The notes under the pieces: generated by a model
What the model was told of the DNA's origin: nothing
Seen by the model: the letters and a program-made list of their open reading frames with translations, nothing else
The model's database searches: none
Position numbers and translations under genes: made by a program
Source of the DNA: an uncultured Gemmatimonadaceae bacterium
GTDB taxonomy: Bacteria > Gemmatimonadota > Gemmatimonadetes > Gemmatimonadales > Gemmatimonadaceae
DNA: 64,000 nucleotides
Assembly: GCA_963790305.1 (NCBI GenBank)
Contig: CAWBOC010000005.1
Location: 800,001 to 864,000, forward strand
Direction of reading: 5' to 3'
Shown: positions 18,007-21,358 of the stretch, piece after piece
Layout of the letters: each line of letters starts with the position of its first letter
Position numbering within the stretch: position 1 is the stretch's first letter

Positions 18007-18453
18007 ATGCGCAACACACTGTACCTCCTCGCCGCCCTCGCCATGCTCGCCTGTGGCTCGCGCCGCCCGGCTTCGCGGCCGCTGACGGAGTTCCTGACGC
18101 CGTACGGGGCGCCTACGCGACCGTTCTCGCCGGCGGTGCGCGTCGGCAACCTGCTGATTCTGTCAGGAGCGATTGGGACGACGGCGACCGGGGCGCTCGT
18201 TCCGGGGGGAATCGGCCCGGAAACACGGCAGGCGCTCGACAACATTCGCGACGTGCTGCAGCGGACCGGCTCCTCGATGGAGCGCGTGGTCAAGTGCACG
18301 GTGATGCTCGCCGACATGCGTGAGTGGGACTCGATGAATGTCGTCTACGCCTCGTACTTTCCCGGGAACAAGCCTGCCCGGTCGTCGTTTGGCGTGACCG
18401 GGCTGGCGCTGGGTGCGCGCGTGGAGATCGAATGTTGGGCCACGGTCGACTGA
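18007..18453 (+). CDS. RidA/YjgF-family protein with lipoprotein signal peptide
   Basis: MRNTLYLLAALAMLAC; PFSPAVRVGN, VVKCTVML, PARS, VEIEC. Confidence 0.88.
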   Translation: MRNTLYLLAALAMLACGSRRPASRPLTEFLTPYGAPTRPFSPAVRVGNLLILSGAIGTTATGALVPGGIGPETRQALDNIRDVLQRTGSSMERVVKCTVMLADMREWDSMNVVYASYFPGNKPARSSFGVTGLALGARVEIECWATVD

Positions 18454-19064: not shown

Positions 19065-19067
19065 CTG

Positions 19068-19179
19068 CCGAGGTAGTCGAGGTGGTCCAGGTCGTCGAGG
19101 AGATCGAAGGCGACACCGTGATGACCTGACCTCGATCACCTCGCCCACCTTGATGCACCTTGATGACCTCGACGACCTC
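19068..19179. repeat. Family D 9-mer palindromic element
   Basis: (gaggtagtc/gaggtggtc/caggtcgtc) mirrored by (gatcacctc/gcccacctt/gatgacctc/gacgacctc). Confidence 0.75.
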
Positions 19180-19641
19180 ATGTCTCTCTACGACTCCATA
19201 GTCACCGTCCAGAAAGTTCAAGGCACGCATCGGCGGGCGACGCTGCCGACGGGCCAGACGATCGATTTCGGCGTGCACGGCGCGATCGCGGCTCACTTCC
19301 GCCTTCAGGAGCAGCCGATGCCGCTGCCCGTGGATTACATCGTGGCATCGACCGCGGGGTGAATGCTCGGAACTCTCAATGGCGCGCTGGAGGCGCGTGG
19401 GATCAAGCTCGCTCCTGATGACATCTCGGCGTCAGCCACTGGCGTGAACGACCTGGTCGACGGAATCGTGAGGCTCACCTCGATCACCATCAGCTACCGC
19501 CTGCGCATCCCGAGCGGCTCGCGCGATGCCGTGGACCGCGCGCTCTCCCGCCACCAGGAGAAATGCCCGACCGCGGTGTCGCTCGCTGCCGCCATCGCCA
19601 TCGCCTGGACGGCCGACATCACCGAGCAGGCTGCCGCGTGA
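19180..19641 (+). CDS. OsmC/Ohr-family redox protein with in-frame UGA (probable selenocysteine) at 19360-19362
   Basis: PVDYIVASTAG-UGA-MLGTLNGALEARG...HQEKCPT; the UGA sits at the family's first catalytic Cys position and both ORF halves are in frame. Confidence 0.78.
19382..19398 (+). promoter_or_regulatory. Candidate bacterial SECIS hairpin
   Basis: GCGCGC-TGGAG-GCGCGT; apical loop starts 25 nt after the UGA and has G in its first two positions. Confidence 0.55.
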
Positions 19642-20619
19642 CCTGGAGACCGCTGGCGCTGGCCGCCAGCCTCATGGCCGTCCCCGTCGTGGCGCACACC
19701 GCGCGGGGCCAGGTGCGACCGGACAGCCTGTTCTCGCACGCGTTAGGCGTCCAGAAGCGGCTGCTCGTGTACCTGCCGCACTCGTACCACCGCGAGACGG
19801 CACGGCGATATCCGGTCGCGTACTATCTGCATGGTGCCTGGGGCACTGAGGACAACTGGGTCAGCCTCGGCCGCATCGATCGCACGATGGACTCGCTGGT
19901 CGCGGCGGGGCTTCCCGAGATGATCCTCGTGCTCCCCGATGGCGATGATGGCTGGTACACCACGTGGAATGCCCTCAATAACACCGCCACCTGTCGTGCG
20001 GACACGGCACGACGCGAGCCTGCCAACAGCTACTGCGTGACGTGGCCCAAGTACGATGAGTACCTCGCACGGGAGCTCATCGCGCACGTCGATTCGACGT
20101 ACCGCACTCGGGCGGAACGTGCCCGTCGCGGGATCGCGGGGCTGAGCATGGGCGGGTACGGCGCCATTTCGCTCGCGCTGCGCTATCCCGATCTGTTCGC
20201 GGCGGCCGCCAGCCACTCGGGGGTGCTGTCCCCTCGTTATGCGGGACCAACCCCCTATACGTCCCCGACGCGGTACGCCGCGACGGTCGACACCATTCAA
20301 CGCCGCTACTCGCCGGGCCTCTGGGCCCTCATGCGGCCGGTATTCGGTGGCGACACGATTGGCTGGCGCGCGCGCGATCCCGCGGTGTATGCCCGCCAGC
20401 TCGTCGCGAGACGCGCTCAGGTGCCCGCACTGTTCGTCGACATCGGTCGCGACGATCCGTTCCTCCAGCAGAACCGCGCCTTTCGCGCCGACATCACCGC
20501 GCTCGGTATCCCGGTGAAATACGCCGAATGGCCCGGCAAGCATGACTGGGTGTATTGGCGGTTGCATGCCGTCGAGAGTCTTACCTGGATGGCGGGGGTC
20601 ATCGCGAAACAGGAATTAG
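19638..20619 (+). CDS. Secreted alpha/beta-hydrolase esterase (3' end uncertain; reads to 20846 as sequenced)
   Basis: Signal peptide, YPVAYYLHG, GLSMGG, DIGRDD, GKHDW. Confidence 0.85.
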
Positions 20620-20739
20620 GAGTCAGGGGTCAGGGGTCAGGGGGTTTCAGGGGGATGGGTCGCAGGAGAGAACGGCAATGCATCGCCTACAACGCTTCAC
20701 CCAGCCCCCTGATCCCTGACCCCTGCCTCCTAACTCCTA
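20610..20739. repeat. Family A element
   Basis: caggaattaggagtcaggggtcagg...ccctgatccctgacccctgcctcctaactccta. Confidence 0.82.
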
Positions 20740-20776
20740 CTTGGCCCCGACTCGACGCGGCTACATACTATCGACC

Positions 20777-21358
20777 GTGGCCCGCTACTTCCCCCGCGAC
20801 AATGTCGCGTGGCACCTCGAGGAGCCGAGGATACTCCGCAAGCTGACGTTGAGCTTGCCGGCGATGGCAGTGATCGCCGGACTCCTCGTCAGGCTCATTC
20901 GGGTCGGCGTCAGCGAGATCACCGTCAGCTGGTGGGGGGTCTTCGGGGCGATCGCGCTCGGGTTGGTGGTGCTGCTCACGACCGCGACGGCGCACCTCGG
21001 AAACTATCCGGTGAAGCAGTGGCTGTGGCGCGCACCGCTCTTCGGGCTCGCCGAGGGCGCCGCCGAGTCCGGCGTGAGCGCGCTGCTCACCCTCATCGGC
21101 GTCGAGCGACTCGGCAGCACGCAGGCCCACCTCAGCGACTGGCCGTCGATGGCGACGGACACGATTATCGGGACGCCGGGGCTGGCCTTTCTCGACGGGC
21201 GCATCGTGATGGTGTCGCTGTTCGCGCTCGTGTTGGCCGGCGTCGTCCAGGTGGTGCGCTATCTCCTCCTGCGCAGCGAGAACCGCGACCACACCGCGGT
21301 CGCGATTCATGAGGAGCACGAGCGACAGGAGCAGGCGGCTTCGCATCAAGCAGATTGA
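20777..21358 (+). CDS. Hypothetical membrane protein (about 4 TM)
   Basis: Hydrophobic segments; AHLGNYPVKQWLWRAP; start uncertain (20741 or 20777). Confidence 0.7.
   Translation: MARYFPRDNVAWHLEEPRILRKLTLSLPAMAVIAGLLVRLIRVGVSEITVSWWGVFGAIALGLVVLLTTATAHLGNYPVKQWLWRAPLFGLAEGAAESGVSALLTLIGVERLGSTQAHLSDWPSMATDTIIGTPGLAFLDGRIVMVSLFALVLAGVVQVVRYLLLRSENRDHTAVAIHEEHERQEQAASHQAD

What the first reader, a model, noticed from the sequence alone, without database searches (positions are those of the whole stretch)
19180..19641. Probable selenoprotein: OsmC-family gene with UGA at the catalytic Cys and a SECIS-like hairpin
Seen in sequence: two track ORFs (ending 19362, starting 19363) are one frame separated only by TGA: DYIVASTAG-U-MLGT, with a second Cys in EKCPT. 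A GCGCGC/GCGCGT stem with a TGGAG loop follows, the loop starting 25 nt after the UGA. Established: OsmC/Ohr proteins use two Cys, the first in an 'LLAALAGC'-like helix, and bacterial SECIS elements lie just 3' of the UGA with a G early in the apical loop. Inference: UGA is recoded as Sec, giving a 153-aa Sec/Cys peroxidase that gene callers would split. The other apparent errors in this window are indels, not substitutions.
Basis: partly seen in the sequence, partly recalled or inferred. Interest (0 to 1): 0.8.

Follow-up and report, generated by a model that had tools for sequence, protein, structure and literature searches.

The report
Hidden selenocysteine OsmC-fold redox enzyme
A small antioxidant-type gene that databases cut in two has an internal TGA stop codon at its catalytic cysteine, which is very likely read as selenocysteine; such selenoproteins have been predicted since 2005, but this widespread subfamily falls outside the curated model.

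Summary
Confirmed. Window 19180-19641 is one frame with TGA at codon 61, the first catalytic Cys column of the OsmC/Ohr fold.
- The codon is TGA in 160 of 160 homologous loci, never TAA or TAG. Full-length Cys homologs exist, one seen as TGC in DNA.
- A 6-bp hairpin 20-36 nt downstream is paired in every cell of 129 distinct sequences. One pair swaps A-U/G-C repeatedly, even changing an amino acid.
- The genome has selA, selB, selD and tRNA-Sec. All 112 carriers among 401 phylum genomes have selA; none of the 81 without selA carries the gene.
Sec recoding: about 0.96.

Sec at this Cys of an OsmC-like protein was predicted in 2005. This subfamily differs: U-M-L-G-T instead of UxxT, and 23 bits against the curated cut-off of 95. 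It lacks the catalytic Glu of Ohr/OsmC, so peroxidase activity is likely (0.6) but not shown.

The scan found apparently the same family before on other genomes (e.g. e1-4253533, e1-4723284). Solid, modestly novel.

The parts
19180..19641 (+). 153-aa OsmC/Ohr-fold (seleno)protein gene, split by gene callers into a 60-aa and a 92-aa piece
   Evidence: Pfam PF02566 46.8 bits; AlphaFold pLDDT 97, best structural match 2onf Z 15.9, rmsd 2.0 over 139 residues; the 92-aa fragment is what databases hold
19360..19362 (+). In-frame TGA, predicted Sec61, at the peroxidatic-Cys column
   Evidence: aligns with Cys in five full-length homologs of 51-61% identity and with the first Cys of OsmC structures; TGA in 160 of 160 loci
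19382..19398 (+). SECIS-type hairpin: stem 19382-19387 with 19393-19398, loop UGGAG (U-G can close a 7th pair)
   Evidence: 100% of 774 cells paired, 3 pairs with two-sided changes, slid controls 4-68%; RNAalifold finds the same helix; silent-site entropy 0-0.86 at codons 68-73 against 0.96-1.88 at the other four-fold codons scored
19564..19566 (+). Cys129, resolving-Cys column (H-x-x-K-C-P)
   Evidence: TGC/TGT in 160 of 160 loci
19231..19233 (+). Arg18, near the Ohr catalytic-Arg position by spacing (Cp-43; Xylella Arg19 is Cp-42)
   Evidence: 194 of 196 sequences; catalytic role inferred
19270..19281 (+). Family-specific G-V-H-G motif with invariant His33
   Evidence: His33 in 196 of 196
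19333..19335 (+). Asp52 (Cp-9), invariant; candidate stand-in for the missing catalytic Glu at Cp-10
   Evidence: 196 of 196; role inferred

Best explanation
The gene has an in-frame TGA at the first catalytic cysteine of an OsmC/Ohr fold, followed by a conserved, covarying hairpin; the TGA is very likely read as selenocysteine, and the product is likely a dimeric peroxide-reducing enzyme. Recoding step (about 0.96, inferred): SelB bound to the UGGAG hairpin would deliver Sec-tRNA to the UGA, giving a 153-aa protein. Catalytic step (about 0.6, inferred from the Ohr/OsmC family): the Sec61 selenolate would attack a hydroperoxide, form a Se-S bond with Cys129 and be re-reduced by a dithiol such as a lipoyl group. 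Arg18 and Asp52/His33/His125 would replace the canonical Arg-Glu pair, which the more reactive selenolate may need less.
For: Codon. TGA in 160 of 160 loci (80 genome, 80 metagenome; the best 80 of 162 and of 215 confirmed; some overlap, 142 distinct incl. the window). The same genes end in TGA 114, TAG 29, TAA 14 (3 run off the contig). TGA also in 20 of 20 loci of a sister clade, 29 of 29 parsed Acidobacteriota loci and 16 of 17 parsed Eisenbacteria loci; the 17th is TGC.
Hairpin. Six pairs intact in 142 of 142; pair +24/+32 is A-U 99, G-C 39, G-U 4, never A-C, and has the highest mutual information of 3915 column pairs. The swap changes Ala72 to Val. The G-C state needs 14 changes on a tree built with residue 72 masked, at least 5 forced by starred branches (quick tree). 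The one Cys gene seen as DNA has lost loop G27 (CTC for CTG), which 146 of 149 TGA genes keep (one case).
Machinery. tRNA-Sec 73 bits, selD with its own TGA, selA and selB present. 112 of 112 carriers have selA against 320 of 401 overall; 0 of 81 selA-less genomes carry the gene; in one family 58 of 61 against 0 of 9 (kin are not independent). Acidobacteriota 30 of 31, compared by eye.
Fold. OsmC/Ohr.
Against: No RNA, proteomic or 75Se data. selA (2) and selB (1) are frameshifted in this assembly; background is about 0.2 shifts per kb and selA's neighbours carry 2-3 each, selB is intact in 5 of 5 sister genomes checked and sister selA matches are unbroken. Carrier G003 lacks selD and tRNA-Sec hits. 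Carriers G515 and G731 lack selA hits but have tRNA-Sec. The hairpin is broken at the +20/+36 register in 3 of 20 sister-clade loci and has at least one mismatch in 8 of 29 Acidobacteriota loci. The catalytic Glu (Cp-10) is V/L/I in 196 of 196; an Ohr-like protein without Arg/Glu was inactive in one study and active in another (PMC5384416 passages). Of 39 full-length database homologs, 19 have Trp at this column; their DNA was not seen. No conserved operon points to a substrate.
Confidence: 0.6

Rival explanations
1. It is a selenoprotein but not a peroxidase: Sec61, Cys129 and the invariant His33/His125/Asp52 form a site for another thiol/selenol reaction, such as persulfide or selenium transfer, disulfide exchange or soft-metal binding.
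For: Canonical Glu absent in 196 of 196; His33 in 196 of 196, His125 in 192 of 196. The top four structural matches are annotated as putative, hypothetical or unknown-function OsmC-like proteins (2onf, 1ml8, 2egt, 2d7v). YhfA activity is unknown (PMC5962072 passage). The genome already has a canonical OsmC.
Against: Z-scores of Ohr/OsmC proper lie within about 2 of the best match. The two-Cys spacing and an Arg at about the Ohr position are kept.
Confidence: 0.34
2. Two translationally coupled genes: the TGA is a true stop and the next ATG starts a 92-aa protein, the halves reassembling.
For: ATG follows the TGA in 154 of 160 loci; databases hold both halves as separate proteins.
Against: Cys homologs also have Cys-Met, so the Met is ancestral. 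The next codon is CTG/CTC/CTA in 6 of 160 and in 31 of 49 further loci. The stop is never TAA or TAG. The break falls in the middle of helix 50-72 and would delete the nucleophile. It does not explain selA co-occurrence or the hairpin.
Confidence: 0.02
3. TGA is read as Trp, Cys or Gly by leaky or lineage-wide reassignment.
For: 19 Trp and 1 Gly at this column in database proteins.
Against: TGA is the normal stop here, including this gene's own end. The annotated Trp tRNA has anticodon CCA and the only TCA tRNA found at the default threshold is tRNA-Sec. All 20 such records come from one annotation source, which fits gene callers choosing code 4 or 25 (inferred).
Confidence: 0.02
4. Sequencing error or a pseudogene.
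For: The assembly is error-prone.
Against: Its errors are indels. The same TGA stands in every sister genome that has the gene (8 of 8). Independent contigs show no other letter at 19360-19362: one 100% identical over 19157-19382 (only 20 letters beyond the TGA), one 89% identical bridging it.
Confidence: 0.01

Closest known systems
OsmC-like selenoprotein of the Sargasso Sea / GOS surveys (PMC1088965, PMC2398784; listed as predicted, motif UxxT, in PMC13188914 Table 1) and NCBIfam NF041052 'OsmC-related (seleno)protein'
   Same: PF02566 fold, Sec in place of the first Cys, a second Cys near the C-terminus, hairpin after the UGA; computationally predicted only.
   Different: Published sequences read ...GIGF-U-LLTQ... 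and ...GCFAE (supplements). Here 0 of 180 have UxxT, F-U or CF[AS]E, and 180 of 180 have UxxxT. NF041052 score 22.8 against cut-off 95; best E 2e-10 among 90 family members. Hosts named in record titles are Gemmatimonadota, Acidobacteriota and Eisenbacteria. That NF041052 models the Sargasso family is my inference from its name.
Ohr and OsmC thiol peroxidases (TIGR03561, TIGR03562)
   Same: Fold (Z about 12-14 to solved Ohr/OsmC), two redox residues 68 apart, an Arg at about the Ohr position.
   Different: Sec for the peroxidatic Cys; no Glu at Cp-10; TIGR03562 score 24 against 85.8; extra invariant His33 and Asp52 and near-invariant His125.
Ohr-like / YhfA-type proteins (PMC5384416; PDB 2onf, 1ml8, 2egt)
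   Same: Two-Cys OsmC fold without the catalytic Glu; best structural matches.
   Different: Only 12-18% identity; these use Cys; their activity is largely uncharacterised.

Membership tests
Bacterial selenoprotein | In-frame UGA aligned with Cys in homologs | tested here: met
Bacterial selenoprotein | selA, selB, selD and tRNA-Sec in the genome | tested here: met
   selA/selB frameshifts match the assembly's indel noise
Bacterial selenoprotein | bSECIS consensus: loop 3-9 nt, stem 4-16 bp, G in the first two loop positions, 16-37 nt spacing, MFE at most -7.5 (PMC13188914 Fig. 2 legend) | tested here: met
   loop UGGAG, 6-7 bp, 25 nt, -9.8 kcal/mol for the hairpin; the rule alone is weak, covariation is strong; bSECISearch itself was not run
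Bacterial selenoprotein | Sec shown in the protein | not testable with these tools
   needs 75Se labelling or MS
OsmC/Ohr superfamily (PF02566) | Pfam score over cut-off, fold, two redox residues about 60 apart | tested here: met
   46.8 against 27.5
OsmC/Ohr superfamily (PF02566) | Homodimer with active sites at the interface | not tested
   no complex prediction was obtained; assumed from the family
Ohr or OsmC subfamily proper | Catalytic Glu ten residues before Cp | tested here: not met
   V/L/I in 196 of 196; numbering from PMC5962072 (Glu51, Cys61)
Ohr or OsmC subfamily proper | Catalytic Arg (loop beta1-beta2 in Ohr; loop before helix 1 in OsmC) | tested here: inconclusive
   Arg18 in 194 of 196, near the Ohr position by spacing but on strand 2 in the model; the OsmC position (41) is R/K/G/Q
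Ohr or OsmC subfamily proper | Curated model score | tested here: not met
   TIGR03562 24.3 against 85.8
Published OsmC-like selenoprotein (UxxT, NF041052) | Sec at the first Cys | tested here: met
Published OsmC-like selenoprotein (UxxT, NF041052) | UxxT motif | tested here: not met
   0 of 180
Published OsmC-like selenoprotein (UxxT, NF041052) | NF041052 score of at least 95 | tested here: not met
   22.8; none over the cut-off in 151 and 201 genomes of two carrier phyla
Published OsmC-like selenoprotein (UxxT, NF041052) | Same clade in a tree | not tested
   no true member was available as a locus, so the tree holds only below-cut-off matches

The most novel reading that the evidence does not exclude
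An uncatalogued selenoprotein family that acquired Sec independently of the 2005 OsmC-like family, is almost always in the Sec form across three bacterial phyla, and uses a new Sec/Cys/His/His/Asp/Arg site for chemistry other than peroxide reduction.
Probability: 0.2. Interest if true: 0.65.

Novelty: new variant of a known kind. Interest (0 to 1): 0.38.

Why it matters
It adds a common selenoprotein subfamily in little-studied bacteria: 112 of 401 Gemmatimonadota, 31 of 201 Acidobacteriota and 18 of 111 Eisenbacteria genomes sampled. Public annotation splits it into fragments and the curated model misses it. It offers a test of whether Sec lets an Ohr-like enzyme work without the catalytic Glu. 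It is also a clean case of an RNA signal shaping protein sequence: an Ala/Val switch tracks a SECIS base pair. It does not change the concept of Sec recoding.

Tried and rejected
- Single-sequence folding of the hairpin region: no better than shuffles.
- Rfam: only a chance match at E 4.4.
- Promoter and terminator scan: none found.
- Sequencing runs: no RNA holder listed; DNA shares were small.
- Cys-form DNA on plasmids: no match with two queries. Only one Cys gene was obtained as DNA.
- True NF041052 members: none over cut-off in 151 and 201 genomes.
- Gene neighbourhood over 100 loci: clusters follow lineage; no neighbour cluster exceeded 15 loci; neighbours were clustered but not annotated.
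- Genome-wide scan for other TGA-plus-hairpin genes: 5 of 232 candidates, with the target best (6-bp stem). It missed selD, so it is insensitive and gives no selenoproteome.
- Dimer prediction: none obtained, so the interface is untested.
- The careful tree did not finish; the quick tree is quoted.
- Atlas search with a Cys homolog returned only generic OsmC clusters.

Full report
Observation. Window 19180-19641 is one reading frame with a single internal TGA at 19360-19362 (codon 61) and Cys129 in EKCPT. Read through, it matches Pfam OsmC (46.8 bits) and folds at pLDDT 97 into the OsmC/Ohr fold. The TGA sits in the middle of helix 50-72, at the column of the first catalytic Cys. Near relatives carry Gemmatimonadaceae titles.

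The codon is conserved and specific. Eight of 60 relatives have a close homolog, all with TGA. All 160 loci kept from the genome and metagenome scans have TGA at column 61 and TGC/TGT at column 129. These are the best 80 of 162 and of 215, and they partly overlap. The same genes end in TGA, TAG or TAA at 114:29:14. TGA also stands in 20 of 20 loci that I picked from the weaker Gemmatimonadota hits (a sister clade), in 29 of 29 parsed Acidobacteriota loci (1 of 30 not parsed), and in 16 of 17 parsed Eisenbacteria loci (1 of 18 not parsed). The 17th has TGC. Five full-length Cys homologs of 51-61% identity read Cys-Met, so the ATG after the TGA is an ancestral residue. It is replaced by Leu codons in 37 of 209 loci.

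The hairpin is real by covariation, not by energy. Alone it is no better than shuffles, and a loose SECIS rule fits 70% of ordinary stops in this genome. In 142 distinct sequences, however, all six pairs are intact, and +24/+32 (A-U 99, G-C 39, G-U 4) is the top pair of 3915 by mutual information. No shuffle of 500 reached any measure, and slid registers gave 4-68% pairing. RNAalifold finds the helix unaided. The swap couples a silent site to an Ala/Val change and recurs: 14 changes, at least 5 forced, on a quick tree with that residue masked. Silent sites are constrained only at codons 68-73. It meets the consensus printed in PMC13188914. Against this, the helix is broken at this register in 3 of 20 sister-clade loci and imperfect in 8 of 29 Acidobacteriota loci.

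Machinery. The genome has tRNA-Sec, selD (with its own TGA), selA and selB. selA and selB are frameshifted, but so are 24 of 131 gene comparisons with a sister genome, selA and selB among them and selB counted twice. selB is intact in 5 of 5 sister genomes checked. In 401 phylum genomes, 112 of 112 carriers have selA against 320 of 401 overall, and none of 81 selA-less genomes carries the gene. The matches of 2 of the 112 were not listed, and kin are not independent. In Acidobacteriota 30 of 31 carriers have selA against 163 of 201 (compared by eye). Exceptions: G515 and G731 lack a selA hit but have tRNA-Sec; G003 lacks selD and tRNA-Sec hits, which are adjacent in G000 and could be one missing contig. 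Unpublished genomes G015 and G458 enter only these background tallies.

How it likely works. Shown: frame, fold, codon conservation, hairpin covariation, machinery. Inferred: Sec insertion (about 0.96). Inferred from the family: a Sec61/Cys129 cycle on hydroperoxides with a dithiol reductant (about 0.6). The doubt comes from the active site. The Glu ten residues before the peroxidatic Cys (Glu51/Cys61 in Xylella Ohr, PMC5962072) is V/L/I in 196 of 196 sequences. Instead Arg18 (194), His33 (196), Asp52 (196) and His125 (192) are conserved. By the criteria of PMC5384416 this is an Ohr-like protein, a group whose activity is unsettled. The genome also has a canonical OsmC. No conserved operon gives a clue.

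Comparison with what is known. An OsmC-like selenoprotein with Sec at the first Cys was predicted in 2005 and 2008 and is the only OsmC entry in the 119-family table of 2026. Its sequences carry F-U-L-L-T and GCFAE, motifs absent from all 180 sequences tested here, and NF041052 scores 23 against 95. That review counts different Sec motifs as separate subfamilies, so this would be one. In a quick tree the Sec forms and their Cys relatives group together (SH-aLRT 93, unstarred) apart from canonical OsmC, with Cys forms scattered among Sec forms. No true member of the published family was in the tree, so independent origin is untested.

Literature seen. PMC1088965 and PMC2398784: passages and supplement passages. 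PMC13188914: section 7 parts 1-2 and passages. PMC9312934 and PMC1976440: one passage each. PMC5384416 and PMC5962072: passages. PMC13326102 (BSepDB): parts 1-3 of 6 and a search of a supplement that was cut when stored, with no OsmC hit. Searches found no description of this subfamily. I could not query BSepDB itself, whose permissive tblastn may already hold these genes, and most subscription papers are outside the library.

Earlier scan notes. Several describe what appears to be the same family in other genomes and call the kind known since 2005. I checked the 2005 source and found the kind known but the motif different.

Verdict. Real, very probably a selenoprotein, a new subfamily of a known kind. 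Interest 0.38.

Noticed in passing
window 19065-19179: An imperfect palindromic intergenic repeat built of 9-mers, with about 109 look-alike places in the genome. A variable copy lies upstream of the gene in several relatives and is absent in others (e.g. G008). Its 3' arm ends at the start codon, leaving no clear Shine-Dalgarno.
   Followed up: partly
P0276-P0299 (database proteins): 19 full-length homologs have Trp and one has Gly at the Sec column, all from one annotation source; probably gene callers choosing code 4 or 25 for a UGA. DNA not seen.
   Followed up: partly
L257-L276, L320-L348: A second, more distant paralog group (T-T-L-D...GG-U-L-T-G-T-F...C-P-V) also has TGA and mostly the same hairpin; many Gemmatimonadota genomes carry both types.
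   Followed up: yes
G000 C6:122325 (L019) and L367: selD has its own in-frame TGA with a similar Y-G-G loop, about 9 nt closer to the UGA than in the OsmC gene; tRNA-Sec lies directly downstream of selD in G000.
   Followed up: partly
G000, whole assembly: About 0.2 frameshifts per kb against a sister genome, clustered locally; broken genes in this assembly should not be taken as pseudogenes without reads.
   Followed up: yes
Gemmatimonadota and Acidobacteriota samples: selA is present in 320 of 401 and 163 of 201 genomes, and was not found in whole genera (e.g. 0 of 16 in g47); a search for selenoprotein plus Gemmatimonad listed no study devoted to this.
   Followed up: no
window 19638-20846 and 18007-18453: The next gene (esterase, PF00756) overlaps the stop codon by GTGA, and a Rid-family gene lies upstream; this context is limited to close relatives.
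   Followed up: partly
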